Assembly: GCA_038891515.1 (NCBI GenBank)
Contig: JAWAEB010000032.1
Coordinates: forward strand, 1-17,390
DNA length: 17,390 nucleotides
Source of the DNA: Nitrososphaerota archaeon
Lineage (GTDB): Archaea > Thermoproteota > Nitrososphaeria_A > Caldarchaeales > Caldarchaeaceae
Direction of reading: 5' to 3'
Below the pieces are notes generated by a model that did not search any database, was not told where the DNA came from, and saw only the letters and a program-made list of their open reading frames with translations. How positions within the stretch are numbered: the first letter of the stretch is position 1; every line of letters begins with the position of its first letter. The position numbers and the translations under genes were made by a program. This document shows positions 1-16,829 of the stretch, one piece after another.

Positions 1-285
1 ACAGTGCTGGTGGATGAGAGTATGAGCGGGAGGTTGATGGCCGGCATCCTAGTACTAGAGCCTGGCCAGAGGCTGCCGGCGGAGGGTTTTAGCCAACATT
101 CCGAGAGCGATGAGCTGGCCTATGTGGTGGAAGGCTCTGCCATCTTCGGTGGGGAAGACGGTGAGATACTGATGAGGGGGTCTGACTTGGTCTTTAATCC
201 TAGGGGTACTAGGCACTATGTGCGGAACGCTGGTGACAAGCCCTGTAAAATGATTTGGTTTCTGGCACCGCCTATCCGGCTCTAG
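1..285 (+). CDS. Cupin-fold small protein, possibly 5'-truncated by the window edge
   Basis: Frame 1 is open from base 1, and the first listed start is GTG at 4. The translation looks like a cupin_2 beta-barrel (LAYVVEGSAIF...GDLVFNPRGTRHYVRNAG). Stop TAG at 283-285. Confidence 0.6.
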   Translation, partial: TVLVDESMSGRLMAGILVLEPGQRLPAEGFSQHSESDELAYVVEGSAIFGGEDGEILMRGSDLVFNPRGTRHYVRNAGDKPCKMIWFLAPPIRL

Positions 286-1967: not shown

Positions 1968-4022
1968 CTATGCCACCTCCCCAGATCTCACCACTATGTT
2001 TCCAAAGCGGTCCACTTGGAAGGTGTCACCAGGCATCACTAGTGTTGTGGATGTTTTCTCCTCTATGATGGCTGGGCCCTGCCTTGACTGGCCGATGGGC
2101 AGTCTATCTCTCTCATAGACAGGTGTCTCGGTGAAGCCCACTCCCGGCAGATATGCTCTCCTAAATCCCTTGCTAGCTTCCTCAAACCCTGTGACGCCTT
2201 CCTGGATAACAGCTATTCTGGGCTTTCTGACCCTTGCGAAAGCAGCTAGGTGGAGGTTGACAACCTCTATCGGGCTGTCCAGCCTGAACGTGTACTCCCT
2301 CTGATGGTCGCTGTGAAAGCGCTCCGCAATCTCACGAAGCCTCTCACCGTTGAACTTCCCGGAGGGGACTTCAACACTGACTGTATGCTCCTGTCCATAG
2401 TATCTGAGGTCTAGTGTCCTAGTGAAGTACATATCCTCCTCACCGACACCTTGGGCTGTCATTACCCGTCGGCCCTCCTCCTCTAGGGAGCTGAAAAGCT
2501 CGTTCAGGAGCCCTATACAGGACCCATCCATCCTCATAACCCGTGTCAGCTTAGAGTCATGCCGCAGGTCCGTCATCAGCATCCCCCATGCGGAGAAGAC
2601 TCCGGGAATCCTAGGTATTACTGTCTTTGATATCTGGAGTTCCCTTGCGAGGAGTGTGGCGAACATGGGTCCGGCTCCACCGTAGGCTATGAGGGTGAAG
2701 TCCCTCGGGTCGTATCCACGGGCTACCGAGACGAGTCTGAGGATGTTGACCATGTTTCCTGCAGCCACTTTTATTATGCCCGCAGCCGCCTCCTCGAGGC
2801 TGATGTGGAAATGCTCTGATATTCCAGCCAGAGCCCTCTCCGCAGCATGTTTGTCAAGCCTTATCTCGCCTCCTAGAAAATATTCCGGGTTGAGTATTCC
2901 GGAGACAACATAAGCGTCAGTGACTGTGGGCTTTTCTCCACCCCTTCCATAACAGGCAGGGCCTGGGTGGGCGCCAGCACTCCTCGGACCCACCTTTAGA
3001 CTGCCAACATCATCTATCCAGGCTATGCTTCCACCCCCTGCGCCTATCTCCACGATGTCCACCACAGGTGTTCTCACCGGATAGCCCGCGTATGATGGTG
3101 TCCTCTCCACCCTATAGTCGGGGTTTAGTCTGATGCGGCCGTTCTCCACTAGGGATGCTTTGGCGGTCGTCCCACCCACGTCCAAGCTTATCACGTTGGG
3201 CTCACCCACCGCAACCCCCAGCTCCCTCGCACCAATAACGCCTCCTGCCGGGCCCGACTCGATCTGAAGTATAGGCGTCTCCCGAGCCCTCTCCAGGACG
3301 GCCACACCTCCGTTGGATTGTATTACATGTATGGGTATACGTATCCCCAGCTCCCGCATCTTCACCTCAAGCTCTGTGAGATACTTTTCCAGTAGCGGCT
3401 TCACATAGGCGTTCAATACGGTGGTGTTCATCCTCTCATACTCCCGCCATTCACGTGTAATCTCGTGGGAGGCCGAGACATGCCTGAAGCTCCTCCTAGC
3501 CATCTGGAGAACCGCCCTCTCATGGGAGGGGTTGGCGTATGAGTTGTAGAGGCAGATGGCTATGGACTCGACACCGAAACTACGTGCTTTCCTCAGGGCC
3601 GCTGCCACACTTCTCCCAGATAGCCTCTTTAAAACCGAGCCGTCTGAGGCGATACGCTCCAAAACCTCGAACCTGAGGTATCTCGGGACGAATGGCTTGG
3701 GCTTCCTATATGAGTAGTTGTACATGTCTGGCCTGTTGGAGCGCTGAATCTCGAGAACATCCCGGAAGCCCTTTGTGGTTATTAACGCTGTCTTGACACC
3801 CTTCCTCTCTATTATTGCGTTGATGACAAGTGTGGAGCCTGTGCCCACAAAACGTGTGACATCCCCTCCACTGATGCCGCTGGATTTGAAGACACCTACA
3901 ACGCCTTCAGAGTAGTCGTGAGCAGTTGTAAGCCCCTTCCCAAGAATAATCTCACCGCTCTCCTCATTCAAGGCGCAGAGGTCGGTGAAGGTTCCACCCA
4001 CATCAATCGCTACCCTGAACAT
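1968..4022 (-). CDS. hyuA: Hydantoinase A / oxoprolinase family protein (HyuA-like, ASKHA ATPase fold)
   Basis: The maximal ORF runs to 4064 (698 aa). The family N-terminus MFRVAIDVGGTFTDL begins at ATG 4022, 27 nt from a TATA-like AATAAAAG (complement of 4045-4053). A second phosphate motif, LDVGGTTAK, is present. The maximal start would leave only 7 bp to the divergent gene. Confidence 0.9.
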   Translation of the reverse strand: MFRVAIDVGGTFTDLCALNEESGEIILGKGLTTAHDYSEGVVGVFKSSGISGGDVTRFVGTGSTLVINAIIERKGVKTALITTKGFRDVLEIQRSNRPDMYNYSYRKPKPFVPRYLRFEVLERIASDGSVLKRLSGRSVAAALRKARSFGVESIAICLYNSYANPSHERAVLQMARRSFRHVSASHEITREWREYERMNTTVLNAYVKPLLEKYLTELEVKMRELGIRIPIHVIQSNGGVAVLERARETPILQIESGPAGGVIGARELGVAVGEPNVISLDVGGTTAKASLVENGRIRLNPDYRVERTPSYAGYPVRTPVVDIVEIGAGGGSIAWIDDVGSLKVGPRSAGAHPGPACYGRGGEKPTVTDAYVVSGILNPEYFLGGEIRLDKHAAERALAGISEHFHISLEEAAAGIIKVAAGNMVNILRLVSVARGYDPRDFTLIAYGGAGPMFATLLARELQISKTVIPRIPGVFSAWGMLMTDLRHDSKLTRVMRMDGSCIGLLNELFSSLEEEGRRVMTAQGVGEEDMYFTRTLDLRYYGQEHTVSVEVPSGKFNGERLREIAERFHSDHQREYTFRLDSPIEVVNLHLAAFARVRKPRIAVIQEGVTGFEEASKGFRRAYLPGVGFTETPVYERDRLPIGQSRQGPAIIEEKTSTTLVMPGDTFQVDRFGNIVVRSGEVA

Positions 4023-4095
4023 GTGTAGAGGATTATGAAGTCCGCTTTTATTCTTTGCCATCAAGATTTATATGCCTTACACATCAAGTAAGCCC
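4023..4095. promoter_or_regulatory. Divergent promoter region with two TATA-like boxes (hyuA side 4045-4053, peptidase side 4067-4073)
   Basis: The A/T boxes CTTTTATTC and TTTATAT are each centred 26-27 nt from an in-frame ATG (4022 on -, 4096 on +). This is consistent with archaeal leaderless transcripts. Confidence 0.5.
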
Positions 4096-5196
4096 ATGTC
4101 CAGTGGAAGTAGACTCGGCCGGCTGCTGGATGAATGTAGGAAGGCTGGAATGGACGGCGTAATTATACTGCCCGGGCCAAACATGAGGTATCTCATCGAC
4201 TTCACTTTAGAAGTGTTTGAGAGGCCAGCCTTTCTGCTGGCTGGGTTCGGCGGCAGGTCAACCTTGCTCGTTCCCCAGCTTGACGAGGAGAGGGCGAGGG
4301 AGGCTGTGGGTAGTGTGTGCGATGTGGCTTCATACAGTGACGAGACAGGCCCTTGGAAGTGGTTGGAGTGGCTTCTATCAGACAAAACCGGCTTCGTGGG
4401 TGTGGAGGATAGAATGCCCCTAGGGCTTTATAGGATGCTGGAGAGCAGGGCCAAGCAGCTGAGATTTGTTGGTGTGGATACCCTTCTCCGCTCCCTGAGG
4501 GTCTCCAAGGATTCTGAGGAGGTGGCTAGGCATAGGGAGGCTGCCCGAATACTGCAGGAAGCCATGCTCAGGACCTTGGCTGAGCTGAGCCCAGGTATCA
4601 GGGAGAGAGAGCTGATGTTCACTTTCCACAGGCATGCTTACGGGTTGGGGGCTGAAACATCATACTGCCTAATCCAATCTGGGCCCAACAGCGCAAAACC
4701 TCACATGGAGCCAACAGCTAAGCCAATAGAGGTAGATGAGACAGTTGTCTTCGATGCCGCAGTAACATATCGGGGATACTATGCAGACATCACAAGGACT
4801 GTCGTTATCGGGGAACCGTCCGAGACCCAGATGAGCATATTCAACACAGTGCTGGAGGCACAGCGGACAGCAATCCAAGCTAGCGGGCCAGGCGTACCAG
4901 CGGAGGAAGTTGACAGGGCGGCTAGAAAACTAATAGCCGATGCTGGTCTAGCTGAGTACTTCATACATAGGACTGGACATGGCTTAGGTGTAGAGGTGCA
5001 TGAAGAGCCATACATAAGATATGGGAACAAGACCCCGTTGACCAGTGGGATGATATTCACTATAGAGCCAGGTATCTACCTACCTGGACAATTTGGCGTA
5101 AGGCTTGAGGACAACCTCGTAGTCAGCTCATCAGGTGTGGAGAACACAACCAAACTACCAAAAACACTCAGCCTTCGCGTGACACTGAGCTCATAG
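4096..5196 (+). CDS. M24 family metallopeptidase (Xaa-Pro dipeptidase / aminopeptidase P-like)
   Basis: The maximal ORF starts at 4072. ATG 4096 (MSSGSRLGRLL) fits the TATA spacing. M24B metal-ligand motifs are present: DAAVTYRGYYADITRT, HRTGHGLGVEVHEEP, FTIEPGIY, RLED. Confidence 0.9.
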   Translation: MSSGSRLGRLLDECRKAGMDGVIILPGPNMRYLIDFTLEVFERPAFLLAGFGGRSTLLVPQLDEERAREAVGSVCDVASYSDETGPWKWLEWLLSDKTGFVGVEDRMPLGLYRMLESRAKQLRFVGVDTLLRSLRVSKDSEEVARHREAARILQEAMLRTLAELSPGIRERELMFTFHRHAYGLGAETSYCLIQSGPNSAKPHMEPTAKPIEVDETVVFDAAVTYRGYYADITRTVVIGEPSETQMSIFNTVLEAQRTAIQASGPGVPAEEVDRAARKLIADAGLAEYFIHRTGHGLGVEVHEEPYIRYGNKTPLTSGMIFTIEPGIYLPGQFGVRLEDNLVVSSSGVENTTKLPKTLSLRVTLSS

Positions 5197-6205: not shown

Positions 6206-6281
6206 TGGGGCCGCTGGGATTTGAACCCAGGATTTCCAACGCCCCAGGCTGGAGTCTTAGACCAAGCTAGACCACGGCCCC
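6206..6281 (-). tRNA. tRNA-Pro (anticodon GGG), no intron, CCA not encoded
   Basis: The reverse complement folds as a canonical cloverleaf. Acceptor GGGGCCG/CGGCCCC, D stem GTCT/AGAC, anticodon stem CCAGC/GTTGG with loop CTGGGGC, T arm CTGGG-TTCAAAT-CCCAG, discriminator A. A TATA-like ACATAAAAC (complement of about 6305-6313) sits about 27 nt upstream. Confidence 0.92.
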
Positions 6282-6569: not shown

Positions 6570-7181
6570 CTAGACATATTTCTGCTCGGATGGGCACCAG
6601 TATTTCTGATACTGTGGGACATACTGGAGCTGGGCTCCACAGCTGGGGCAGAAGGGACCCTGTGCGGCTGGCTGGGGTGGCGGAGGCGGGGGCGGTGAAG
6701 TAATACCCACGGGGCCTGCGGCTGGTTGTACAGGTGCTCTACCGAAGAACGCCTTGACATGTGGCCTAGTCAAGTAGTAGATTATTATCACATAGATCAC
6801 AATCGATATGACTAAGCCGACGATCATGCCGACGATCAAGGCCCCACCAAACTCGGTTCCTGCGTAAGGGGCTACTTGTGAGAGGGTTATTGCGCCTATT
6901 ACAAGACCTATAACAAGTGAGATTATTATCCATGCCAGAACAAACGTATAGTATCTGCCCATTATCATCATGACGCCGACCAATAACCCCACTATGCCGA
7001 TCACGAGGTTTACAGAGCCCAGCACCATGCCTTGTGCTAGGCTCGTCGCGCCGCCGGAGATACCGAGAATGCTGCCGATGATCTGGAGGATGGCTATGAT
7101 CAATAGTCCGACTGGCCTCTTCCTAGCTGGTGCTGCTGCCGGTGGGCCTACAGGATAAGCTTTATGAAAACTTATTTTCAT
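6570..7181 (-). CDS. Uncharacterised 4-TM membrane protein with poly-Pro linker and C-terminal Cys-rich (zinc-ribbon-like) tail
   Basis: 203-aa ORF with four hydrophobic Gly/Ile/Val-rich helices. These are followed by SPPPPPPPQPAAQGP (6654-6698) and the tail FCPSCGAQLQYVPQYQKYWCPSEQKYV* (6570-6653). A TATA-like CTTATATGT is centred 25 nt upstream of ATG 7181. Confidence 0.8.
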   Translation of the reverse strand: MKISFHKAYPVGPPAAAPARKRPVGLLIIAILQIIGSILGISGGATSLAQGMVLGSVNLVIGIVGLLVGVMMIMGRYYTFVLAWIIISLVIGLVIGAITLSQVAPYAGTEFGGALIVGMIVGLVISIVIYVIIIYYLTRPHVKAFFGRAPVQPAAGPVGITSPPPPPPPQPAAQGPFCPSCGAQLQYVPQYQKYWCPSEQKYV

Positions 7182-7252
7182 ACAGAGGGAGAAAAATCCC
7201 TACATATAAGCGTTCAAGTAGACGTTAAATAAACATCATCACCCTTAAACGT
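7182..7252. promoter_or_regulatory. Divergent promoter region (TATA-like boxes at 7202-7210 for the - gene and 7225-7233 for the + gene)
   Basis: Each box lies 24-25 nt from the respective ATG (7181 and 7253). Confidence 0.45.
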
Positions 7253-7606
7253 ATGGCCTATCCACCACCCGGATATGTTCCACCACCTCCCGTAAGCCGT
7301 GAGAAAGTTAAGGAGACTCTTGTCAAGATCTTTACTGGTCTTGATATCGCAGTGAGTGAGGTGAGGCGGTGTAGCGCCAACGTGGAGATTCTAAAGAGGT
7401 ATGTGCCCTGTATGCTGGAGAGCGACCTAGCTGCGTTGGAAGCTGCTGCTAGGGAGTTTGCTGAGGTTGAGTGCCGTGGTAGGGGTGTTAAGAAGGTTTA
7501 CATGTGGTCTGTTCGGGAGGGTGTCTACAACTACCTCAATATCGGCTTCTTCACAAGAGAGAAGGACGCCACTGTGCTCACCATACTCTCGGTGGGCACC
7601 AGTTAA
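7253..7606 (+). CDS. Hypothetical soluble 117-aa protein with a Pro-rich N-terminus (MAYPPPGYVPPPP)
   Basis: ATG start with a TATA-like box upstream and no TM segment. It contains a PPxY-like PPPGY. I recognise no family. Confidence 0.65.
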   Translation: MAYPPPGYVPPPPVSREKVKETLVKIFTGLDIAVSEVRRCSANVEILKRYVPCMLESDLAALEAAAREFAEVECRGRGVKKVYMWSVREGVYNYLNIGFFTREKDATVLTILSVGTS

Positions 7607-7628
7607 AGCTTTTTATAGGGTCTATCAC

Positions 7629-7955
7629 ATGACAGAAGGCATGATAGGCTCAGCCTTTGACAGTGATGGACTGGACTACATATACTATGGCGCCATAGCC
7701 GCAGCTGTTGCGGCGCTCTTCACCATGATAGCTATGGTGGCCGGAGGAAGTGTGGCGGGTGCTGTGATAGGGGTTTTGGGTGGACTGGCTTTTTTGGGAG
7801 CCGGAGGACTGTGGGTGATTGGCTTCGGAAGATATAGAGCGTATTACAGGGCTGCAATGGGTTATGGACCACCTGTTCAGCAGGCGACGTTCCCTGGGCC
7901 CGCACCGCCACCTCCACCGCCACCACCGAGCCAGTCAAGCCGTGAACAACTATGA
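7629..7955 (+). CDS. Small 2-TM glycine-zipper-like membrane protein with poly-Pro C-terminal tail (paralog A)
   Basis: The in-frame ATG at 7629 or 7641 is more plausible than the listed 7458 start, which overlaps the upstream gene. The TTTTTATA box at 7610-7617 fits a leaderless start at 7641. The protein has the motif DGLDYIYYGAIA, two Gly/Ala-rich helices, and the tail GPAPPPPPPPPSQSSREQL. Confidence 0.7.
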   Translation: MTEGMIGSAFDSDGLDYIYYGAIAAAVAALFTMIAMVAGGSVAGAVIGVLGGLAFLGAGGLWVIGFGRYRAYYRAAMGYGPPVQQATFPGPAPPPPPPPPSQSSREQL

Positions 7956-8182
7956 CACAGCAAAATGATGGACTGGACTACATATACTATGGCGCTATAG
8001 CACTTCTGGCTGCGGGCCTACTCCTATTCATCGGGTTCATAGCCGCCGCCGCAGGCGGTGGAGTGACTGCCGCCGTTCTCAGCGTGTTGGGCGGCTTCGC
8101 CTTGCTGGCCTTTGGTGGGCTCTGGTCCTATGGGTTCATGTTACACAGGTTGCATGTGAGGCAGTATTTGGTTAGACGCTAG
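7952..8182 (+). CDS. Small 2-TM glycine-zipper-like membrane protein (paralog B, lacks the Pro tail)
   Basis: Its start overlaps the stop of paralog A (ATGA at 7952-7955). It shares DGLDYIYYGAIA...VLGG.A.L..GGLW..GF with paralog A. Confidence 0.7.
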   Translation: MTQQNDGLDYIYYGAIALLAAGLLLFIGFIAAAAGGGVTAAVLSVLGGFALLAFGGLWSYGFMLHRLHVRQYLVRR

Positions 8183-9315
8183 CGGCTCTCCCTAGGAGCA
8201 TATCCATGGCCGTATCCCCAGAAATACTCATCCACAAGCGCTTCTCTAGCCATCTTGCTGAGATGGTATACGAGGACAGGCCCCCAGATGAACACCACTA
8301 TGAGGGCTATTGTGCCGAGGAGATCGGCTATGGTGTTCCATAACATGTGGGTGAATGCCGAGAAGGCGAGGGCCGGTAGTAGGGCTGAGAAACGGAGGGC
8401 CAGCCCATGAACCTTGAGGTAGCCCATCCAATATCCTATTAGGCCGGTGGTGAACATGTGCATGGACATGGTTATTATCCTCACAGGTATTATGAGGGGT
8501 GCAGCCTCTAGGCTTCTAGCTATGTAGAGTATGTTCTCTCCGAAGGCGAATCCAAGTCCTGCAGCGGCCCCATACAATAGGCCGTCCAGATGGTCGTTGA
8601 ACTCTGACCTTAGCTTGGGGCTTGTGGCTATCAGGTATACGCCCAGAATCTTGATGGGTTCTTCTGTGAAGCCTGCCAGCCCGGACCACCCCACCGTTCC
8701 TATAAGAAGGTTGTTGATGATTATCGCTGGAAGGATGGAGAATACACCCCATCCCCAAGCAAGGGCTACAAGCCAAACCGGCTCCGGCTCCAGCCTGTCA
8801 TTCATCCTCATCCATGCTAGGAAGGCCATGGCCGGTAGTAGGGCTGCGACTATCGAGGCAGGTAACATGGCAGCGAGGCCCTGTAAGTCCAGGACAATAG
8901 AGGCTGTGGCGAGACCTAGGAAGAAGATGATTAAGGCCAAGGTCAAGTAGTGGCCGGCGCTCGCTATTGTCTGGAGCCCTAACCTCTCATAAACAGCAGG
9001 TGATGCCCTGTATATCGGCCCCCTCTTCTTGGTGAGGAGCCTGTAGAGCAGCATCACATCGGCCAGCCCCCCTCTAGGCCTCGTGGACGGGTCTGTGTGG
9101 TACTGCCCCATGGTCATGGATGGGACGTAGCTGGTGAGCTTCTGCCTCTGTATTGGATATCCGCATCTTGGACATGCGTTCAGGTGGGCTGGGATTTGGC
9201 TTCGGCAGTTAGGGCATAGAACTTGAGTCAGTGGTGCTCCACATCTGAAGCAGTAGAGGCTGTTGGGCTGGTTAACAAAACTACATGAATGGCATGTGAT
9301 GGCTGACATAGCCAC
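8179..9315 (-). CDS. PrsW-family intramembrane protease with N-terminal double zinc ribbon
   Basis: The N-terminus has two CxxC...CxxC knuckle pairs (CHSCSF..CFRCG; CPNCRS..CPRCG). The polytopic body carries PrsW-type motifs FTEEPIK, GLGFAFGENILY, MHMFTTGL and FTHMLWN. A TATA-like CTTTTATG sits about 34 nt upstream. Confidence 0.85.
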   Translation of the reverse strand: MAMSAITCHSCSFVNQPNSLYCFRCGAPLTQVLCPNCRSQIPAHLNACPRCGYPIQRQKLTSYVPSMTMGQYHTDPSTRPRGGLADVMLLYRLLTKKRGPIYRASPAVYERLGLQTIASAGHYLTLALIIFFLGLATASIVLDLQGLAAMLPASIVAALLPAMAFLAWMRMNDRLEPEPVWLVALAWGWGVFSILPAIIINNLLIGTVGWSGLAGFTEEPIKILGVYLIATSPKLRSEFNDHLDGLLYGAAAGLGFAFGENILYIARSLEAAPLIIPVRIITMSMHMFTTGLIGYWMGYLKVHGLALRFSALLPALAFSAFTHMLWNTIADLLGTIALIVVFIWGPVLVYHLSKMAREALVDEYFWGYGHGYAPRESR

Positions 9316-9362: not shown

Positions 9363-10038
9363 GGCACTGTCAACTAAGCTTTTCAAGATGGGTCTAAGGC
9401 CTGACAGTTACCCCTCTCTGCTGTGCATGCATTTGAATAGATAATTGAATCGTTCTCAAGACTGTTCAGAACCCACAGGTAAAACCCTGTCGAGAAGGTC
9501 TATACAGCAATATTATTTATTGGGGGGCTTAGTCTTGGGGATCTGTCTGAGAGGTACTGTCTGACCGGTGCTTCTGGGGGGAGTGTCAGGAGATGGATCC
9601 ACAAGCTAGGGATATTATTTAAGCCTGGGAGGATTGTTGTAGTAGACGAGACCGTTGAGAAGATAATAGATGTGGATTTTAGGGAGATAATGGCTGTCTA
9701 TGTGTCTAGGGGTAGATCAATAGGTACAGCCCTAGCATTCCTTGGAAGGGTCCTCGCTACATGTGATGGCAGACCTCTCATAGTCGTTGATAGGGGGTCC
9801 ATGGTATCCATGGGCCCTAAAACGCCTAGGAATAAACAATATCCACGAAACATTCGGTGAAAGGAACATTATAGAAAGATGGTTTAGGGAGCTGAAGGAA
9901 AGGACAGGGAGGTTCTACAACAACATAAACTCAAAGGTTGTTAAGAGCATGGAGGACATAGTGGCTGCGGTCGCACTGGTACACAACATGCTGCTAGGAA
10001 ACAAGAGAATAAGAGGTGTAATACCAAGTTGACAGTAC
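9363..10038 (+). mobile_element. Decayed IS6-family insertion sequence (copy 1)
   Basis: The left end GGCACTGTCAACTAAG (9363-) matches the GGCACTGT terminus characteristic of IS6/IS26-type elements. The right end is the imperfect inverse ...AAGTTGACAGTAC (to 10038). It is flanked by the imperfect direct repeat TAACCAAAGG (9353-9362) / TAACAAAGG (10039-10047). Internal transposase remnants are present. Confidence 0.7.
9427..10032 (+). pseudogene. IS6-family DDE transposase pseudogene (stops, frameshift, small deletion)
   Basis: ATGCATTTGAATAG gives an early stop. The later frames read VVVDETVEKI..DVDFREIMAVYVSRGRS...DGRPLIVVDRG and then, after a frameshift, PWYPWALKRLGI..HETFGERNIIERWFRELKERT. 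Compared with copy 2 it lacks the RLGERVYLWSA segment. Confidence 0.7.
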
Positions 10039-10053
10039 TAACAAAGGATGTGA

Positions 10054-11022
10054 CTACACTGCCCTCCTCCTCAAGGCCACAGTAACAAGTAGGATTCCTG
10101 AGATTATGAGTGAGAGATAGTATGATGCTATCCTCCATTGAATAACCGCCACCATTGAATCTATACCCGAGACCTTGCTGAGGTAAAGGTATACACCGGC
10201 CTCAGTGAGGCCTGAACCACCAACCGTAATCGGCAGAACGCCTAGAGCGTTTCCTGAGTGGAATGCATATAGACAGCTCAGGAAGCCACAACCGTCCAGC
10301 AGTTGAAGTATTGCCGCTGGCGCCGTCATAACAACTAATGTGGAGAGCAGCAGAAAAGTGTGGGCCGATATCCTGTGAGTGGATACCAGAGAGCCAACTA
10401 TCCTATCCATGTCCTCCGAGCCGTTTTTCAGGCTCCTTCTAACTTCGCTCGGTAGGGGTAGACGCTCAGCCACCCATCCAATCACACCGCCCAGCCATAC
10501 ACCACCCTTCACCAAGGTCACGAAGATGCATGTAGCGAGGAGTTGGATAAGCGATACAAGCAGTACAGGGACTGCCAGATAATATACATTGGCCAACATA
10601 GCGTTGAAGGCTGCGGCAACTGCTATGATTGACCCCACCCATGTATCCAGCAGCATCTCGGCGAATGATATCCAGAAGGCCTGACCAACCCTCTCCCCAC
10701 GCTCAACCAGCAGCCATGCTCTCGCAGCCTCGTCCGCCAAGAATGGAAGAGTTGTTAGGGCGAAGAATTCACTTGCGCCTCTCAGGGCAAACGAGTCACG
10801 GTATCGGATGCCGATTGTCGAGTATTTTCTCAGGAGGAGGTGGAGTCTGAATCCCTGCGCCGTGAATCTTACTAGGTTCAGCATGAGGGAGAAGAACAGT
10901 ATCAGTGGGGGTATTGCTAGAACATCCTCTATGGGTGTTTTAGAAACATTGATGACAAGCAGTGATATGGCGAAACCTAGGAAGACTCCCACTAGGGAGC
11001 TTCTGAGGTATCTATGCCTCAT
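10054..11022 (-). CDS. Polytopic membrane protein, probably flippase-like / LPG-synthase-TM (UPF0104, PF03706-like) family
   Basis: 322 aa with about 8 TM helices. The N-terminal arrangement (basic N-terminus, TM1, then LNLVRFTAQGFRLHLLL) resembles UPF0104 proteins. The assignment is by eye only. It overlaps the upstream methyltransferase by 11 nt. Confidence 0.5.
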   Translation of the reverse strand: MRHRYLRSSLVGVFLGFAISLLVINVSKTPIEDVLAIPPLILFFSLMLNLVRFTAQGFRLHLLLRKYSTIGIRYRDSFALRGASEFFALTTLPFLADEAARAWLLVERGERVGQAFWISFAEMLLDTWVGSIIAVAAAFNAMLANVYYLAVPVLLVSLIQLLATCIFVTLVKGGVWLGGVIGWVAERLPLPSEVRRSLKNGSEDMDRIVGSLVSTHRISAHTFLLLSTLVVMTAPAAILQLLDGCGFLSCLYAFHSGNALGVLPITVGGSGLTEAGVYLYLSKVSGIDSMVAVIQWRIASYYLSLIISGILLVTVALRRRAV

Positions 11023-11596
11023 ACCTCTTCACAGCCACGACGCAAATGGATTGCTGGATAGCTGTGAGATGCCGACTTCGTATATTGTTCAGCGGCCATA
11101 TTATATGCATGTGGAGAGGTATCCTAGCTAAGACATTCATACCATGCCTACGCAGCCTTCTCTCAAGCCCCATCCAAGTTAAGTGGTGGGCATGTGTTGG
11201 GTCTGCAAAGCTGTCATAGAGGCCGAACCCCATCGTGTTGGGTGTGAGAATCAAGAGGAGCCCATCCTTACGAAGCACCCTCACACATTCTCCGAGAGCC
11301 TTGTCGATGTCATGTACATGCTCCAGTACATCCAACATCAACACTCTGTCGAGGCAGCCTGACCTAATCGGCAAAGAAGTGGCTGAGCCTTGTATGTCGG
11401 GGGCAAGTTCCACATCCACACCCACATAAAGATCGCCATGACAATATGGGGCATAATGCTTATGTCCGCAGCCTACTTCCAGAACCCTAACAGCCCCCCG
11501 GGTAAAAGCTGACACGAGGCCAGCCTTGTACACCCTGAACCTGTGCGGGTCCAAGGGGCTTCTAAGAAGTGGCTGCAGTTGCAAGAGGAGCACCAC
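11012..11596 (-). CDS. Class I SAM-dependent methyltransferase (Methyltransf_11-like)
   Basis: Motif I VLEVGCGHK, then VGVDV, then RVLMLDVLEHVHD and LRKDGLLLILTPN. The apparent start is GTG at 11596, with no in-frame ATG nearby. Confidence 0.85.
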   Translation of the reverse strand: MVLLLQLQPLLRSPLDPHRFRVYKAGLVSAFTRGAVRVLEVGCGHKHYAPYCHGDLYVGVDVELAPDIQGSATSLPIRSGCLDRVLMLDVLEHVHDIDKALGECVRVLRKDGLLLILTPNTMGFGLYDSFADPTHAHHLTWMGLERRLRRHGMNVLARIPLHMHIIWPLNNIRSRHLTAIQQSICVVAVKRYEA

Positions 11597-12121: not shown

Positions 12122-12149
12122 CAGGCGTCCAAACCGGATATATTCTGTC

Positions 12150-12245
12150 GGTTCTGTTAACTTAGGTATTACAATGCAGGGATTATCCCTTCTAAGGCTT
12201 AGAGCGATGAAATCTCCCTTACCATAATACCAAAGTTAACAGAAC
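12150..12245. mobile_element. MITE-like 96-bp element with 21-bp terminal inverted repeats and 10-bp flanking direct repeat
   Basis: 12151-12171 GTTCTGTTAACTTAGGTATTA matches the reverse complement of 12225-12245 at 20 of 21 positions. ATATTCTGTC is present flush on both sides (12140-12149 and 12246-12255). The terminus GGTTCTGTTAACTTAGG matches the IS6 terminus GGCACTGTCAACTTAAG at 13 of 17 positions. Confidence 0.6.
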
Positions 12246-12294
12246 ATATTCTGTCTCTGGAAAAGTTTATCAACCCCCTCAGCCGAATCACAGC

Positions 12295-12723
12295 ATGTCC
12301 GGTGTGCCTCGGGCCAAGCTCATAGGCATGCAGGTCTACAACCCCGACGGATACCTTGTCGGCACTGTTCAGGATGTGGAGCTACCCATCGGCAGCGGTG
12401 AGATAAGCCTACAGGTACTCACTAGACTGAATACGGTTGAGCGGGTGCCTTGGAGCAACATAGCTAACGTGGGTGATATAGCAATATTAAAGGAGAAGAT
12501 AGATATTAGAGCACCAGAGCCAGCTGCTCCTCAGCCATCACCAGCAGCAGGCGCGCCGCCGGTAGCGGGTTATCCCCAAGCTCCACCGCCCCAGCCTGGT
12601 GGAGTGCTTTCAAAGCTTCCCTTCGGGAAGAAGAAGCAGATATGTCCCACATGTGGTAGGGAACTATCTTGGATAGAACAGTATCAGAGATGGTACTGCT
12701 ACAACGAGGGTAAGTACGTCTAG
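12295..12723 (+). CDS. PRC-barrel domain protein with poly-Pro linker and C-terminal Cys-rich (zinc-ribbon-like) tail
   Basis: The N-terminal 70 aa fit the PRC-barrel pattern (AKLIGMQVYNPDGYLVGTVQDVELPIGSGEISLQVL). A Pro/Ala-rich linker occupies 12511-12600, and the tail ICPTCGRELSWIEQYQRWYCYNEGKYV* occupies 12640-12723. A TATA-like AAGTTTAT sits about 28 nt upstream of the ATG. Confidence 0.8.
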   Translation: MSGVPRAKLIGMQVYNPDGYLVGTVQDVELPIGSGEISLQVLTRLNTVERVPWSNIANVGDIAILKEKIDIRAPEPAAPQPSPAAGAPPVAGYPQAPPPQPGGVLSKLPFGKKKQICPTCGRELSWIEQYQRWYCYNEGKYV

Positions 12724-13910
12724 CCAAGGTGCGGTGAGATTAGAACCCCCTTCCTCACTAGCCTCTCCAACACCGCCCTTAGGTGGGGTTTAGCGGAGAA
12801 TCTGATATATAGATAGGTGGCTGTCATAGATATTGTGAGAAGTAGGTGGAAGACCAGTCCCAATAGGATGAGAGCAAGTAATAGGTCGCCGTCAGCAACA
12901 ACGAAGGTGAAGCTTATGGGTGCGAAGATGAAAGTGTATATCTCCACCATCTCTTCGGCGAGACTGTGGATGGCTGGCCGCATCATAACACGTCTAACAC
13001 TATCGAACATCCTCACGCCCAAATCCTCATAGAGCCATAGAACTGGCCCCACGTAGAGGGAGCCTGCCGCGATAGCCACGATTGAGGCTAGCGCCGCACC
13101 CGCAGTAGCAGCGAAGGGGTCACCCCCAAACAATTGTATGTTTAGAAGGTCCAGCACACTGGATACTGTGGTGGTCACACCCAGTCCGAAGGCCATCGGA
13201 TAGTATGAGCGGGAGACGACGTTCATGAGTGTAGTCTCCTCAGGGGACGGAGTCTCCACAGACATCAGCCTCACCCTAGTCCCCCCCTTCCCAACCCGTC
13301 TCATCAGCAGGTAGGTTGTGAAGCGGTCAGCCAGCATGTGCCAGAAGACCCATGTGATTATGGCGGGAAGGAGATACCTGACGTAGAAGCTCTGGGTGGA
13401 CGCTATGGGTAATAGTGGAATATAGAGGGCGGCTATGACCGCTATGTCTAGGTTATCCTCGTGTGGGTTAGGCGGTGGCCTGACACCATGCTTGGAGGCC
13501 CGCCTATTCACTATGATCCCCGATACTACACCTGCCAACATGAGGGCCGGCCCCACCGACCATGTGAGGGATAGTAGTGTTGCCGTCGGGATGAAGGATT
13601 CTGGAGTCCCCCAAAGGATTGATGTGGTGAAGGCTGATGTGGAGAGTATCAGGCCGCCTGAGGAGGGGTAGAGATACCACTTTCTCATGGGATGCAGTCC
13701 GCTGATGAGCCAGCCGAGTCCGAAGGCTGCGACAGCTGGGCCGAGGTCAAACTGTAGTATATAGATCAGTGATGAGAACCATGTGGCCAGCACCATGAGC
13801 AAACCAGTTCTAGCAGCATATTCTAGGGAAAAACCTAATGCGATAAGTATGGCACCAACCAGCATGATCGCTAGACCTGTCTTGGAGGATGGCTCAACCA
13901 CTCCTACCAC
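12720..13910 (-). CDS. Uncharacterised polytopic membrane protein (about 10 TM)
   Basis: 396-aa ORF, strongly hydrophobic, with a basic cytosolic loop (NRRASKHGVRPPPNPHED). The GTG start at 13910 overlaps the upstream gene by 7 nt; an alternative ATG lies at 13865. I recognise no family. Confidence 0.7.
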   Translation of the reverse strand: MVGVVEPSSKTGLAIMLVGAILIALGFSLEYAARTGLLMVLATWFSSLIYILQFDLGPAVAAFGLGWLISGLHPMRKWYLYPSSGGLILSTSAFTTSILWGTPESFIPTATLLSLTWSVGPALMLAGVVSGIIVNRRASKHGVRPPPNPHEDNLDIAVIAALYIPLLPIASTQSFYVRYLLPAIITWVFWHMLADRFTTYLLMRRVGKGGTRVRLMSVETPSPEETTLMNVVSRSYYPMAFGLGVTTTVSSVLDLLNIQLFGGDPFAATAGAALASIVAIAAGSLYVGPVLWLYEDLGVRMFDSVRRVMMRPAIHSLAEEMVEIYTFIFAPISFTFVVADGDLLLALILLGLVFHLLLTISMTATYLYIRFSAKPHLRAVLERLVRKGVLISPHLG

Positions 13911-15256
13911 CTCAGCAATCCCACCCTGTACATGAGAGCTAAGGCAAGCAGAATGGACAGGATACCCATGAACGTCGGATGTGAGTTAAGGAAGAATTGG
14001 ATGGTCTGACTTCTCTGCTGTATCGAGGGGGCACGTTGTAAAGCAAGATATGTGGAGAGGAGGGAGGCGCGCCACCACCTGTTGACGAACTCATCCGATG
14101 GTAGGACACCCCTCTCGACGAGTGGAAAATATTCACCTCTTACAGAAACTTTGGACATAGCTAGGGAGACAACATCATGAAGCTCCTGTATCTTGCCCAC
14201 GACTTGCTCAAGCTTCAGCAGGAGTGTAGGAAACCTGAGGTCAGCTATCATAATGCGGCGGCCAGCCACAGCCGCAATCTCCTCACCCGGGATAAGCGGG
14301 TCCAAGGGATAAACATCAAACGCATCAACTGGAAGCAACAATATCCTGTCGCCAGCCCTCCACATGGCAGCTATGCTCTTGGCCAAGCTTATGGCCTGCT
14401 CCCCTGCATATCTCGACTGCTTTAGATGGATGTTCTCAGCCGCATCTACCAACGACGCGAGAGACCTGAGCAGGTCCTGATAGCTATCAGAGTTCTTGGG
14501 CAGGGACAGCGATGCGTTCACCACATATTCTATATGAACCGCCCACAATGCCACCAGTTCAACAGGAGGCTCCAAACCAGCCTCATGGGCTGCACCCAGT
14601 AGCTGGGAGAGCTGGGAGAGAGAGCTAGTGAGTCCAATATATCCCCTTGCAGAGTAGTTTATTATATCATCCATATGCTGTGTATATTCTCTCAGCGCCT
14701 CCGATACATCAGGTGTGAGCGGCTGGCCACCGGTCATGAATGAGATGCGGGAGGAGAGGGTCAGGAAGGCGGCCTTCGAGGTGGGTGGCGCCCACCCCAG
14801 CCTCCTCTCAAGACTCTGCACCAGCTTAAGCATGTTAGCCTTACTTCTCAAATCCTTGGTGAGGCCATAGTGGAGGGAGAGAAAATTGGCCACCGTCAAA
14901 TGTGTAATAAGATTCTCAGCATAGGAGCTGCTACTAACATCAAAACCCAAATCTACCCCATCCTCTCCCTCGACCCGTCCATTAACCTGGGCCGCCACCC
15001 TATTCAATAGCTGAAGGGACTCAATGTCACCTAGACCCAAGTGCAGTAGGGCGGCCATGGATCCCACCAGTGCATGGCTCCTGAGAGAGCGGACAGGATC
15101 GAAACTAGCTGAGACGCTTCCATCAGATTCTACAATCCCAGTGACATATGCTAGGTCGGCTCTGAGAACGTCCCGAACGCCCGCCCCCTCCCCATTCACA
15201 ACCGGAAGAAAGAACAACGTAATCGTGAGAAATACAGGCACCAGTTTTGCTCCCAT
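13904..15256 (-). CDS. Uncharacterised secreted, C-terminally membrane-anchored protein (helical-repeat-like ectodomain)
   Basis: 450-aa ORF with an N-terminal signal-like segment (LVPVFLTITLFFLPVVNGEG) and a C-terminal TM (FMGILSILLALALMY). A TATA-like CTTATTAA is centred 28 nt upstream of ATG 15256. I recognise no family. Confidence 0.7.
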   Translation of the reverse strand: MGAKLVPVFLTITLFFLPVVNGEGAGVRDVLRADLAYVTGIVESDGSVSASFDPVRSLRSHALVGSMAALLHLGLGDIESLQLLNRVAAQVNGRVEGEDGVDLGFDVSSSSYAENLITHLTVANFLSLHYGLTKDLRSKANMLKLVQSLERRLGWAPPTSKAAFLTLSSRISFMTGGQPLTPDVSEALREYTQHMDDIINYSARGYIGLTSSLSQLSQLLGAAHEAGLEPPVELVALWAVHIEYVVNASLSLPKNSDSYQDLLRSLASLVDAAENIHLKQSRYAGEQAISLAKSIAAMWRAGDRILLLPVDAFDVYPLDPLIPGEEIAAVAGRRIMIADLRFPTLLLKLEQVVGKIQELHDVVSLAMSKVSVRGEYFPLVERGVLPSDEFVNRWWRASLLSTYLALQRAPSIQQRSQTIQFFLNSHPTFMGILSILLALALMYRVGLLRW

Positions 15257-16707: not shown

Positions 16708-16781
16708 GCCTGGGTGGTATAGCCTGGTTAGCATCGCCGGCTGTCGCCCGGTGGACCCGGGTTCAAATCCCGGCCCAGGCG
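16708..16781 (+). tRNA. tRNA-Asp (anticodon GUC), CCA not encoded
   Basis: Acceptor GCCTGGG/CCCAGGC, anticodon stem GCCGG/CCGGT with loop CTGTCGC, T arm CCGGG-TTCAAAT-CCCGG, discriminator G. The D stem (GTAT/GCAT) pairs poorly in my hand fold, which is the one non-canonical point. Confidence 0.82.
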
Positions 16782-16829
16782 CTTCTAGATATGCATTATT
16801 AGTGTGAGAGGGTTAAGGGGAAAGGATTA

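What the first reader, a model, noticed from the sequence alone, without database searches (positions are those of the whole stretch)
6570..9315. Divergent five-gene membrane cluster around a zinc-ribbon PrsW protease: candidate uncharacterised membrane proteolysis or signalling module
Five tightly packed genes occupy this span. (1) A 4-TM protein with a poly-Pro linker and Cys-rich tail (6570-7181, -). (2) A soluble 117-aa protein starting MAYPPPGYVPPPP (7253-7606, +). (3, 4) Two tandem 2-TM Gly/Ala-rich paralogs joined by an ATGA overlap (7629-7955 and 7952-8182, +). (5) A PrsW-family intramembrane protease with an N-terminal double zinc ribbon (8179-9315, -), whose stop shares a CTAG with the stop of paralog B. 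In Bacillus, PrsW performs site-1 cleavage of the membrane anti-sigma factor RsiW. To my knowledge, substrates of archaeal PrsW homologs are not established. Small bitopic or 2-TM proteins encoded next to the protease are the obvious candidate substrates or regulators. I can assign none of the four partner proteins to a known family. That they act together as one system is inference from adjacency only.
Basis: partly seen in the sequence, partly recalled or inferred. Interest (0 to 1): 0.7.

Follow-up and report, generated by a model that had tools for sequence, protein, structure and literature searches.

The report
Conserved orphan gene block around archaeal PrsW
Five small membrane-related genes, one of them an intact PrsW-type membrane protease, stay together in one group of uncultured hot-spring archaea. 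This gives the first concrete candidate partners for an archaeal PrsW, but no interaction or cleavage has been shown.

Summary
All five ORFs exist at the stated coordinates with the stated overlaps and are under purifying selection (dN/dS 0.08-0.27). The protease is a genuine PrsW-family enzyme with an N-terminal double zinc ribbon and invariant catalytic motifs.

The five genes stay linked in five Aigarchaeota (Caldarchaeum-like) lineages whose PrsW is only 55-76% identical. The linkage survives different flanks in nearly every lineage and one internal rearrangement. When PrsW separated from its older neighbours (methyltransferase, LPG_synthase_TM-like protein), it stayed with these genes.

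The hairpin pair and the 117-aa protein are clade-restricted orphans (17 and 8 clusters among 5.8 billion). They are absent next to more distant zinc-ribbon PrsW orthologues, so they are an add-on, not universal PrsW partners.

Distant orthologues often sit beside other membrane or PRC-barrel proteins that end in a proline-rich linker and a zinc ribbon. One such family recurs across phyla.

The idea of a functional module is therefore supported by linkage. The substrate or regulator roles remain inference. I favour stable accessory subunits over consumable substrates. Interest is moderate.

The parts
6570..7181 (-). g1: a four-segment membrane protein, then a poly-Pro linker and a C-terminal zinc-ribbon-like tail (CPSCG...YWCPSEQKYV; three Cys plus Glu).
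   Evidence: ORF and hydropathy. Orthologues are 51-70% identical in all related loci. dN/dS is 0.11-0.21. The membrane domain is related to proteins that hit DUF7144/DUF2127. The tail module is found in many other proteins, up to 10 copies in P0060.
7182..7252 (.). 71-nt divergent intergenic region between g1 and g2, with two A/T-rich TATA-like boxes (ATATAAGC and GTTAAATAAA).
   Evidence: The core CATATAAGC..AGACGTTAAATAAA is conserved in the window, L001, L002 and L018. Reading it as back-to-back archaeal promoters is inference. The sigma-70 scan does not apply to archaea.
7253..7606 (+). g2: soluble 117-aa protein with a Pro-rich disordered N-terminus and an alpha-beta-beta-alpha-beta-beta-beta core. 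Cys40, Cys74 and several Glu, Tyr and Trp residues are invariant.
   Evidence: ORF and alignments. Only 8 clusters are found among 5.8 billion proteins. AF2 model has pLDDT 87.4. No PDB match reaches E <= 0.001. No Pfam match reaches the gathering threshold. In lineages 4-5 it lies 4 nt downstream of PrsW on the same strand.
7629..7955 (+). g3 (hairpin A): N-terminal DGLDYIYYG motif, two Gly/Ala-rich helices, an Arg/Tyr-rich juxtamembrane segment and a poly-Pro tail.
   Evidence: It is 71-72% identical over 86 aligned residues in lineages where PrsW is only 55-62% identical. dN/dS is 0.09-0.17. No family assignment; the Rv2743c/PspM hit is sub-threshold at 13.5 vs 27.7 bits.
7952..8182 (+). 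g4 (hairpin B): a paralog of g3 without the Pro tail, ending in an Arg-rich cluster (HRLHVRQYLVRR).
   Evidence: ATGA overlap with g3 and CTAG stop overlap with PrsW. The same 4-nt convergent overlap is seen in L001 and L002. dN/dS is 0.18-0.23.
8179..9315 (-). g5: PrsW-family glutamic-type intramembrane protease with an N-terminal double zinc ribbon, a conserved cytosolic linker and a conserved C-terminal tail (EALxDEYYWGxxxGYxPRE). The likely start is the ATG at 9309.
   Evidence: Pfam and NCBIfam. Invariant residues include E216 E217 K220, D239 H240 D242, E258, H284 and H321 (N259 and N325 are nearly invariant, in at least 90% of sequences) across 18 orthologues. AF2 model has pLDDT 86.3 and pTM 0.86.
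9366..9436 (-). Non-coding block 50-120 nt upstream of PrsW, conserved between the window and L001. Role unknown.
   Evidence: By eye it is about three-quarters identical to L001 in the alignment, although the upstream genes differ and the coding dS is about 1. It is absent from L002.
9620..10032 (+). Degraded IS (transposase fragments). It separates PrsW from the LPG_synthase_TM-like gene that abuts PrsW in lineages 4-5.
   Evidence: ORFs at 9672-9860 and 9787-10032. There is an 82% inverted match to the IS240-like transposase gene at 16922-17266. In L013 and L017 the LPG_synthase_TM gene ends 7 nt before PrsW.
10054..11596 (-). Context: an LPG_synthase_TM-like membrane protein (10054-11022) and a class I SAM methyltransferase (11012-11596). 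They form a same-strand run with PrsW in lineages 4-5.
   Evidence: They are not adjacent to PrsW in L001 or L002/L018.
12295..12723 (+). Context: a PRC-barrel protein with a Pro-rich linker and the same zinc-ribbon-like tail as g1 (CPTCG...WYCYNEGKYV).
   Evidence: Pfam PRC 24.3 bits. Its tail matches the g1 tails at 48-62% over 26-27 aa. Orthologues lie three genes from PrsW in L013, L016 and L017, and four genes away in L015. PRC zinc-ribbon genes sit directly beside PrsW in L006, L023 and L024.

Best explanation
This is a clade-specific accessory module attached to an ancient TACK-archaeal protease.

**The protease.** The core is a catalytically intact PrsW-family glutamic-type intramembrane protease. 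It has a cytoplasmic N-terminal double zinc ribbon and a conserved cytoplasmic C-terminal tail.

**The added genes.** In Caldarchaeum-like Aigarchaeota four extra genes are co-inherited with it:
- two paralogous two-helix hairpins (g3, g4) with an invariant cytoplasmic DGLDYIYYG motif;
- a small cytosolic alpha/beta protein (g2);
- a four-helix membrane protein whose cytoplasmic tail is a poly-Pro spacer plus a zinc-ribbon module (g1).

**Proposed mechanism.**
- g3 and g4 form a hetero-oligomeric hairpin pair. They act as stable accessory or gating subunits of the protease, not as consumable substrates.
- g2 is a cytosolic adaptor or sensor that docks on the hairpins or on the cytoplasmic parts of PrsW.
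- Membrane proteins with zinc-ribbon tails (g1; the 237-aa family in sister lineages) and the PRC-barrel zinc-ribbon protein are the clients or tethered partners that the complex acts on.

**Shown:** the genes are real, they are under purifying selection, the protease motifs are intact, and the genes stay linked and co-occur.

**Inferred:** physical association, who cleaves whom, and topology. The topology (N and C termini inside, active site near the outer leaflet) comes from the positive-inside rule only.
For: **Linkage**
- All five genes are together in five lineages with PrsW identity of 55-76%.
- The flanks differ in nearly every lineage. Beyond PrsW they are an IS fragment followed by LPG_synthase_TM/methyltransferase (window), VapBC-like genes (L001), POR (L002/L018) or directly abutting LPG_synthase_TM/methyltransferase (L013-L017). 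Beyond g1 they are tRNA-Pro (window), an ion-channel-like gene (L001), LysX (L002/L018), a P-type ATPase (L013) or DUF1801 and/or CDP-OH transferase genes (L015-L017).
- One internal rearrangement moved g2 to just downstream of PrsW (4-nt gap) without removing it from the block.
- In L001 and L002/L018, PrsW is separated from the methyltransferase/LPG_synthase_TM genes but not from g1-g4.

**Co-occurrence**
- Cluster counts match roughly 1:1. There are 9 PrsW clusters at 55% identity or more, 8 A-type and 9 B-type hairpin clusters, and 8 g2 clusters.

**Conservation**
- g3 is more conserved than the protease: 71-72% over 86 aligned residues vs 55-62%.
- 18 positions are invariant across both hairpin paralogs.
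- dN/dS is 0.08-0.27 for all five genes.
- The g1|g2 divergent region is conserved.

**Wider theme**
- Proteins with a zinc-ribbon tail lie within one to three genes of zinc-ribbon PrsW in other lineages: L003, L006/L023/L024, L008, L025.
- The 237-aa membrane zinc-ribbon protein of lineages 4-5 is homologous to the one beside PrsW in the Thermoproteales-like clade (28% over 196 aa, E 8e-11).
- PRC-barrel zinc-ribbon proteins are also found in both places.
Against: - There is no direct evidence of interaction, co-expression or cleavage.
- All block-bearing genomes belong to one clade, so inheritance plus operon inertia explains part of the linkage. g2-g3-g4 are probably co-transcribed.
- The partners are absent from most zinc-ribbon PrsW orthologues, so the protease does not need them.
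- Enrichment of zinc-ribbon-tailed membrane proteins near PrsW was not significant in a crude count: 10/76 within three genes vs 6/80 farther out, Fisher p = 0.18. An earlier, looser count showed no difference.
- g1 appears frameshifted in one MAG (L016).
- PrsW is convergent to g4 in the window, not co-transcribed.
- No multimer prediction was possible.
Confidence: 0.4

Rival explanations
1. Neighbour without partnership. g1-g4 form their own small membrane complex, or are several unrelated envelope proteins. PrsW is merely a long-standing neighbour, kept by descent, overlapping gene ends and low rearrangement within a compact block.
For: - All carriers are one clade.
- The 4-nt convergent overlap of PrsW and g4 and the g2-g3-g4 operon structure make internal breakpoints costly whatever the function.
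- More distant PrsW orthologues work without these genes.
Against: - Synonymous sites are saturated, and both flanks have been replaced repeatedly while the block stayed whole.
- g2 sits next to g3 in one arrangement and immediately downstream of PrsW in the other.
- PrsW lost its methyltransferase/LPG_synthase_TM neighbours but never g1-g4.
Confidence: 0.27
2. PrsW works mainly with the other conserved neighbours as an envelope-protein maturation or sorting enzyme. These neighbours are the methyltransferase, the LPG_synthase_TM (flippase-like) protein and the 450-aa secreted protein. That protein has a conserved C-terminus, SHP(T/S)F + transmembrane helix + RxGLLRW, which looks like a tripartite sorting signal. 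The hairpins are incidental or accessory.
For: - Methyltransferase, LPG_synthase_TM, PrsW and g2 form a tight same-strand run in L013, L015 and L017.
- The 450-aa/396-aa/PRC/methyltransferase/LPG_synthase_TM block is conserved with the window.
- The C-terminal motif is conserved in four orthologues.
- Glutamic-type intramembrane proteases of the related CPBP family have been proposed, computationally, as sorting enzymes for tripartite C-terminal signals (bioRxiv 10.1101/2023.01.19.524832).
Against: - In L001 and L002/L018 this block is not next to PrsW.
- It is absent from the distant PrsW loci.
- PrsW is a different family from the CPBP myxosortases.
- Only one candidate target was seen.
- No lipid-attachment chemistry can be inferred.
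Confidence: 0.12
3. The tandem Gly/Ala-rich hairpins are a two-component membrane-active peptide (toxin or bacteriocin-like). The PrsW-superfamily protein is its immunity or processing factor, as Abi/CPBP proteins are in two-peptide bacteriocin loci of lactic acid bacteria (from my own knowledge of that literature).
For: Two small paralogous GxxxG-rich peptides are encoded in tandem beside a membrane protease of the Rce1/CPBP/PrsW superfamily.
Against: - There is no double-glycine leader and no exporter or C39 peptidase nearby.
- Both hairpin ends are predicted to be cytoplasmic (positive-inside reasoning).
- Inheritance is strictly vertical and 1:1 under strong purifying selection, unlike the patchy distribution of bacteriocin loci.
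- There are no PADLOC hits.
Confidence: 0.04

Closest known systems
Bacillus subtilis PrsW, the site-1 protease of the anti-sigma factor RsiW (sigma-W pathway)
   Same: - Same Pfam family (PF13367, 94.8 bits).
- Conserved Glu-Glu and His motifs.
- Multi-pass membrane enzyme.
- The logic of a membrane protease encoded with candidate membrane partners.
   Different: - It scores 68.8 bits against the NCBIfam PrsW equivalog, whose cut-off is 225, so it is not an equivalog.
- It has an N-terminal double zinc ribbon, a ~60-residue conserved cytosolic linker and a conserved C-terminal tail.
- Archaea have no sigma or anti-sigma factors (established knowledge), and no site-2 protease gene is in the window.
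- The candidate partners are hairpins or four-helix proteins with almost no extracytoplasmic domain.
Zinc-ribbon PrsW orthologues of Thermofilaceae, Thermoproteales-like and Korarchaeota-like MAGs (P0010-P0027)
   Same: - Same domain architecture along the full length at 37-57% identity.
- 42 positions are invariant.
- They often neighbour membrane or PRC-barrel proteins that end in a Pro-rich linker and a zinc ribbon.
   Different: - They lack g2, g3 and g4.
- Their neighbours' zinc ribbons are the PF13240 type, not the QYQ(K/R)YWC type of g1.
Gamma-secretase and BOS-complex small subunits (PEN-2 hairpin with APH-1/TMEM147). This is an analogy from my own knowledge.
   Same: A member of the Rce1/CPBP/PrsW-like fold superfamily working with a roughly 100-residue two-helix hairpin subunit. 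The only structurally plausible PDB hit for the PrsW model was a 224-residue chain of the multipass-translocon structure 7TM3 (prob 0.80, target-normalised TM-score 0.49).
   Different: - There is no homology between g3/g4 and PEN-2.
- APH-1 is non-catalytic.
- I did not verify the identity of the 7TM3 chain.
- This is an analogy for how the module might work, not a membership claim.
Archaeal PRC-barrel division proteins (CdpB1/2, CdvA)
   Same: The neighbouring 142-aa protein has a PRC barrel. PRC-barrel proteins are implicated in archaeal cell division (bioRxiv 10.1101/2023.03.28.534520; PMC11188069).
   Different: Here the barrel is fused through a Pro-rich linker to a zinc ribbon shared with g1. 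No division genes are nearby. A text search of that paper's main text found no mention of zinc or Zn-ribbon, and none of the returned passages listed a membrane-protease neighbourhood.

Membership tests
PrsW family intramembrane protease (Pfam PF13367, MEROPS M82) | Profile match above the curated threshold | tested here: met
   94.8 bits vs cut-off 23.5, residues 178-344.
PrsW family intramembrane protease (Pfam PF13367, MEROPS M82) | Conserved catalytic-type motifs (EExxK, His-containing helices, HxxxN) | tested here: met
   E216 E217 K220, D239 H240 D242, E258, H284 and H321 are invariant (N259 and N325 nearly invariant, in at least 90%) in 18 orthologues. Mapping these onto the essential Bacillus residues rests on my own knowledge of the family, not on an alignment made here.
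PrsW family intramembrane protease (Pfam PF13367, MEROPS M82) | Multi-pass membrane topology | tested here: met
   The AF2 model has pLDDT 86 with seven or more long helices after residue 118. Hydropathy and loop charges agree.
Bacillus-type PrsW (NCBIfam NF033739 equivalog; RsiW site-1 protease) | Equivalog-level score | tested here: not met
   68.8 bits vs cut-off 225.
Bacillus-type PrsW (NCBIfam NF033739 equivalog; RsiW site-1 protease) | An anti-sigma substrate and ECF sigma factor, with a site-2 protease downstream | tested here: not met
   Among the window ORFs that were scanned, none is a sigma factor, an anti-sigma factor or an M50 protease. Archaea lack sigma factors (established knowledge).
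Bacillus-type PrsW (NCBIfam NF033739 equivalog; RsiW site-1 protease) | Demonstrated proteolysis of a neighbouring protein | not testable with these tools
   This needs cleavage assays.
Double zinc ribbon (Pfam PF12773) | Profile match above threshold at the PrsW N-terminus | tested here: met
   35.4 bits vs 27.3, residues 8-52. It is present in all full-length orthologues.
DUF7144 / DUF2127 membrane proteins (for g1) | Profile match above threshold | tested here: inconclusive
   g1 itself has no such hit at E <= 1. Relatives found with g1 do reach threshold: P0075 hits DUF7144 at 28.2 vs 27, and P0065 hits DUF2127 at 26.4 vs 24.3.
PspM / Rv2743c family (for g3) | Profile match above threshold | tested here: not met
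   13.5 bits vs 27.7. The same weak hit appears in 6 of the 12 hairpin sequences scanned, one of them the window's A-type g3. It may be driven by composition (my inference).
Two-peptide bacteriocin locus with Abi/CPBP immunity protein | Double-glycine leader, dedicated exporter, patchy distribution | tested here: not met
   There is no leader in g3 or g4 and no transporter in the window. Distribution is 1:1 and vertical.
C-terminal sorting signal plus glutamic-type sorting protease (myxosortase-like) | A target with a passenger domain followed by signature motif, transmembrane helix and Arg cluster | tested here: inconclusive
   g3 and g4 have no passenger domain. The 450-aa neighbour (13904-15256) does have a conserved SHP(T/S)F + helix + RxGLLRW end. 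Only one candidate was seen, and PrsW is not a CPBP myxosortase.
Known anti-phage defence systems (PADLOC) | Any profile match | tested here: not met
   No hits for nine proteins of the region.

The most novel reading that the evidence does not exclude
Zinc-ribbon PrsW is the protease of an archaeal regulated membrane-proteolysis pathway. Its clients are membrane proteins that carry a cytoplasmic Pro-rich spacer and a zinc-ribbon module (g1, the 237-aa family, and others in Thermoproteota). Cleavage frees or destroys the zinc-ribbon tail. The tail would communicate with PRC-barrel zinc-ribbon proteins, and so possibly with the PRC-barrel-based division or envelope machinery. In Caldarchaeum-like Aigarchaeota the g3/g4 hairpin pair and g2 would be dedicated gating subunits. 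This would be a sigma-independent counterpart of bacterial anti-sigma proteolysis cascades.
Probability: 0.1. Interest if true: 0.75.

Novelty: new variant of a known kind. Interest (0 to 1): 0.42.

Why it matters
No archaeal PrsW has a known substrate or partner. A 2022 review lists the Haloferax homologue's function as unknown (PMC9263693).

This block supplies a short, specific list of candidates: two hairpins, one small cytosolic protein and one zinc-ribbon-tailed membrane protein. They have stayed with the protease through repeated genome rearrangement, so the question can be tested with recombinant proteins and catalytic-site mutants.

The wider pattern hints at a recognition principle for a protease family found throughout TACK archaea. 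In that pattern, zinc-ribbon PrsW sits beside membrane or PRC-barrel proteins that end in a Pro-rich linker and a zinc ribbon, with one family recurring across phyla.

The limits are real. The organisms are uncultured, the partners are clade-restricted orphans, and everything beyond linkage is inference.

Tried and rejected
- **Anti-phage defence.** PADLOC gave no hits.
- **Structured RNAs.** Rfam found only tRNA-Pro (6206-6281) and tRNA-Asp (16708-16781/16782).
- **g2 vs the YbjN-like protein beside PrsW in L003.** No relationship (hhalign probability 0.1).
- **Solved PrsW structure.** None was found by sequence or by fold.
- **Enrichment of zinc-ribbon proteins near PrsW.** No difference with a loose pattern, and not significant with a stricter one (p = 0.18). 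No genome-wide base rate was available.
- **A shared operator.** A motif shared between the PRC gene upstream region and the g3|g1 spacer of L015 turned out to be a terminal repeat of a small MITE-like element.
- **IS-mediated inversion.** I considered that the two transposase fragments were halves of one IS split by an inversion. I rejected this because the copies overlap (82% inverted match) and the present gene order matches the related lineages.
- **CAAX-like processing of g1-g4.** I considered a protease-plus-methyltransferase scheme. None of the proteins ends in a CAAX box.
- **Sigma-70 promoter and terminator scan.** It does not apply to archaea and gave nothing above expectation.
- **Literature.** Searches for archaeal PrsW with zinc ribbons or arCOG context found nothing relevant.

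Full report
**Observation**

The window is archaeal. The protease is 100% identical to a protein annotated in a Nitrososphaerota MAG, and its nearest relatives are Candidatus Caldarchaeum and archaeon HR01.

All five ORFs are at the stated coordinates (sequence).
- g1 (6570-7181, -) has four hydrophobic segments, a PPPPPPP linker and a C-terminal CPSCG...YWCPSEQKYV tail.
- g2 (7253-7606, +) is a 117-aa protein with no hydrophobic segment.
- g3 (7629-7955, +) and g4 (7952-8182, +) are paralogs, 45% identical. Each has one ~50-residue hydrophobic stretch, consistent with a two-helix hairpin.
- g5 (8179-9315, -) hits Pfam PrsW-protease (94.8 bits, cut-off 23.5) and DZR (35.4 bits, cut-off 27.3).

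The ATGA and CTAG overlaps are as described. There are two small corrections. The database start of PrsW is the ATG at 9309 (376 aa). The g1 tail has three Cys, with Glu where relatives have the fourth Cys.

**Are the genes real?**

Against the closest relatives, synonymous sites are already near saturation (dS about 1 or more). Even so, dN/dS is 0.08-0.27 for all five genes. The short ORFs are therefore protein-coding genes under purifying selection.

**The protease**

Eighteen orthologues share the full architecture. They come from Aigarchaeota, Thermofilaceae, a Thermoproteales-like clade, a Korarchaeota-like MAG and Pelearchaeum, at 37-76% identity.
- The shared architecture is a double zinc ribbon, a conserved cytosolic linker (RP.GGL...KKR.PIY..SP.VYERL), the PrsW domain and a conserved tail (EAL.DEYYWG...GY.PRE).
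- Forty-two positions are invariant. They include E216, E217, K220, D239, H240, D242, E258, H284 and H321; N259 and N325 are nearly invariant.
- The AF2 model is confident (pLDDT 86.3, pTM 0.86).
- Loop charges fit an eight-helix, N-in/C-in topology with the Glu-Glu motif towards the outer leaflet. This topology is my inference.

The protein scores only 68.8 bits against the NCBIfam Bacillus PrsW equivalog (cut-off 225). It is a family member, not an equivalog. No solved PrsW structure was found by sequence or by fold.

**The partners**

g2, g3 and g4 have no match at or above the curated thresholds in Pfam or NCBIfam, and no PADLOC match.
- A profile search of 5.8 billion proteins found only 17 hairpin clusters, all scoring strongly.
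- The same kind of search found only 8 g2 clusters.
- These are therefore clade-restricted orphans. The word-index limit of that search should be kept in mind.

g2 folds confidently (pLDDT 87.4) as alpha-beta-beta-alpha-beta-beta-beta behind a disordered Pro-rich N-terminus. It has no significant PDB match.

g1 is composite.
- An exhaustive HMMER search found 171 relatives.
- Some match its four-helix domain, and two of these just reach the DUF7144 and DUF2127 thresholds.
- Others match only its ~30-residue tail, C-P-x-C-G...Q-Y-x-(R/K)-Y-W-C-x-x-(C/E)-x-x-Y.
- That tail is a mobile module. It occurs at the C-terminus of diverse membrane proteins after a poly-Pro spacer, and up to ten times in tandem in P0060.
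- The same tail ends the PRC-barrel protein at 12295-12723.

**Neighbourhood test**

The five genes occur together in every locus that contains any of them.
- The loci are the window, L001 (HR01), L002/L018-L020 (Caldarchaeum sp.), L013/L014/L021, L015/L022, L016 and L017.
- By PrsW identity these fall into five lineages, 55-76% identical to the window.
- Cluster counts agree with 1:1 co-occurrence.

The flanks differ.
- Beyond PrsW: a degraded IS followed by LPG_synthase_TM-like and methyltransferase genes (window), VapBC-like genes (L001), pyruvate:ferredoxin oxidoreductase (L002/L018), or directly abutting LPG_synthase_TM and methyltransferase genes (L013-L017).
- Beyond g1: tRNA-Pro (window), an ion-channel-like gene (L001), LysX (L002/L018), a P-type ATPase (L013), or DUF1801 and/or CDP-OH transferase genes (L015-L017).

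There are two internal arrangements.
- In lineages 1-3 the order is g1 <-> g2-g3-g4 >< PrsW.
- In lineages 4-5, g2 lies 4 nt downstream of PrsW on the same strand.
- In lineages 4-5 an extra 237-aa gene (membrane domain, poly-Pro, Cys-rich tail) lies between g2 and the hairpins.

Rearrangements have therefore hit the outside of the block repeatedly. The one internal event kept every member.
- In L001 and L002/L018, PrsW parted from the methyltransferase/LPG_synthase_TM run but not from g1-g4.
- I estimate at least eight independent outer breakpoints and none separating members.
- If only the two non-operonic internal junctions and the two outer junctions count as free, the chance of that pattern is about (1/2)^8.
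- Both numbers are my own rough inference from the flank comparisons, not a tool result.

The g1|g2 spacer keeps two TATA-like boxes and the sequence between them in lineages 1-3.

**Limits of the association**

Twelve more distant loci with zinc-ribbon PrsW were examined: L003-L011 and L023-L025. L012 was not informative on the upstream side. None carries g2, g3 or g4. The partners are a clade-specific addition.

**A wider pattern**

Several distant loci have other proteins with a Pro-rich linker and a terminal zinc ribbon within one to three genes of PrsW.
- L003 has a YbjN-like gene, a TM/poly-Pro/zinc-ribbon gene and PrsW running in the same direction.
- L006, L023 and L024 have two PRC-barrel zinc-ribbon genes and a five-helix zinc-ribbon gene, divergent from PrsW.
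- L008 has a PrsW paralog without the zinc ribbon, plus a two-helix zinc-ribbon protein.
- L025 has a multi-pass zinc-ribbon protein.

The five-helix protein of L006 is homologous to the 237-aa protein of Aigarchaeota lineages 4-5 (28% over 196 aa, E 8e-11). PRC-barrel zinc-ribbon proteins are near PrsW in both groups.

This cross-phylum recurrence of two specific families is the best hint that zinc-ribbon-tailed proteins are functionally tied to this protease. A generic enrichment count was not significant, however: 10/76 vs 6/80, p = 0.18. I had no genome-wide base rate.

**Mechanism**

What is shown:
- an intact protease;
- real and constrained partner genes;
- persistent linkage and co-occurrence.

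What I infer:
- The hairpins are stable accessory or gating subunits rather than substrates. g3 is more conserved than the protease (71-72% over 86 aligned residues vs 55-62%). The two paralogs share 18 invariant positions, centred on a cytoplasmic DGLDYIYYG motif and the second helix. They co-occur 1:1 with PrsW.
- g2 is a cytosolic adaptor or sensor. It has invariant Cys40 and Cys74 plus acidic and aromatic residues. It is operonic either with the hairpins or with PrsW.
- g1, the 237-aa family and the PRC zinc-ribbon protein are candidate clients or tethered partners.

My confidence in this overall reading is about 0.4.

The rivals are these:
- The genes are neighbours without partnership (about 0.27).
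- PrsW acts as a maturation or sorting protease for the other conserved block. That block includes a 450-aa secreted protein with a conserved SHP(T/S)F + helix + RxGLLRW C-terminus. This follows the precedent proposed for CPBP proteases. About 0.12.
- The hairpins are a two-peptide toxin and PrsW is its immunity factor (about 0.04).

**Comparison with known systems and verdict**

The module resembles the Bacillus PrsW-RsiW logic only in having a PrsW-family protease next to membrane proteins. It fails the equivalog threshold, and it has no sigma factor, anti-sigma factor or site-2 protease.

It is a new variant of a known kind: a known protease family with a previously undescribed, clade-specific set of accessory genes. 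The literature I could search lists archaeal PrsW function as unknown, and I found no description of this neighbourhood.

Interest is moderate. The candidates are concrete and testable. Against that, the organisms are uncultured, the distribution is narrow, and there is no functional evidence.

Noticed in passing
window 12151-12245 (with flanking repeats at 12140-12149 and 12246-12255): A 95-nt MITE-like element lies between the PCuAC gene and the PRC zinc-ribbon gene. It has 21-nt terminal inverted repeats (TTCTGTTAACTTAGGTATTA, 95% complementary). It is flanked by a 10-nt direct repeat, ATATTCTGTC, that looks like a target-site duplication. A related arm lies in the g3|g1 spacer of L015 and L022.
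   Followed up: partly
window 9366-9436 (- strand): A non-coding block 50-120 nt upstream of PrsW is, by eye, about three-quarters identical to the corresponding place in L001. This holds although the upstream genes differ and coding dS is about 1. It is absent from L002. It could be a regulatory element, a small RNA or a repeat remnant.
   Followed up: no
window 9620-10032 (+) and 16922-17266 (-): Two degraded copies of an IS240-like transposase gene lie in inverted orientation (44-nt arms, 82% complementary). The first sits exactly where LPG_synthase_TM abuts PrsW in related genomes.
   Followed up: partly
window 12295-12723 (+) and g1 tail 6570-6660 (-): The PRC-barrel protein and g1 end in the same zinc-ribbon-like module. 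In both, Glu replaces the fourth Cys (C..E.KYV). Relatives P0061, P0065 and P0069 have the canonical four Cys. The Cys-to-Glu variant recurs in P0070, P0072, P0083 and P0127.
   Followed up: partly
window 13904-15256 (-) and 12720-13910 (-): A 450-aa protein with an N-terminal hydrophobic segment has a conserved C-terminal SHP(T/S)F + helix + RxGLLRW end, which resembles a tripartite sorting signal. It overlaps a 396-aa multi-pass protein. Neither has a Pfam family. Both are conserved, at 55-72% identity, next to the PRC, methyltransferase and LPG_synthase_TM genes in L013-L017.
   Followed up: partly
P0060 (766 aa): This protein consists of about ten tandem copies of the g1-type zinc-ribbon module, separated by acidic low-complexity spacers. 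No dedicated Pfam family covers the module; only generic zinc-ribbon models hit it.
   Followed up: no
L008 4974-5855 (-) and 4126-4977 (-): A second PrsW paralog lacks the zinc ribbon but keeps the conserved C-terminal tail. It lies divergent to the zinc-ribbon PrsW and is followed by a two-helix protein with a Gln/Tyr/Pro-rich linker and a zinc ribbon.
   Followed up: no
L003 5216-7134 (+): In a Thermofilaceae MAG, PrsW is the last gene of a tight same-strand run. It follows a YbjN/T3SS-chaperone-like protein (TY-Chap1, 35.7 bits) and a 105-aa TM/poly-Pro/zinc-ribbon protein.
   Followed up: partly
L016 8869-9452: The g1 orthologue matches in two adjacent pieces in different frames, and the gene call there is only 87 aa. 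This is either a frameshifted pseudogene or an assembly error in that MAG.
   Followed up: no
L013 6961-7674 (-); L006 4186-4815 (-); L023 3208-3843 (-): A multi-pass membrane protein family with a C-terminal Cys-rich or zinc-ribbon tail lies beside zinc-ribbon PrsW both in Aigarchaeota lineages 4-5 and in a Thermoproteales-like clade (28% identity, E 8e-11). It is missing from the window.
   Followed up: yes
window 6206-6281 (-): tRNA-Pro(GGG) lies 289 nt downstream of g1 and marks one edge of the block in this genome. tRNA-Asp(GTC) lies at 16708-16782, next to the second IS fragment.
   Followed up: no
window 282-5196: Hydantoinase/oxoprolinase B and A subunits and an M24 Xaa-Pro peptidase are ordinary metabolic genes. 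They are not syntenic with the block in any related locus.
   Followed up: yes
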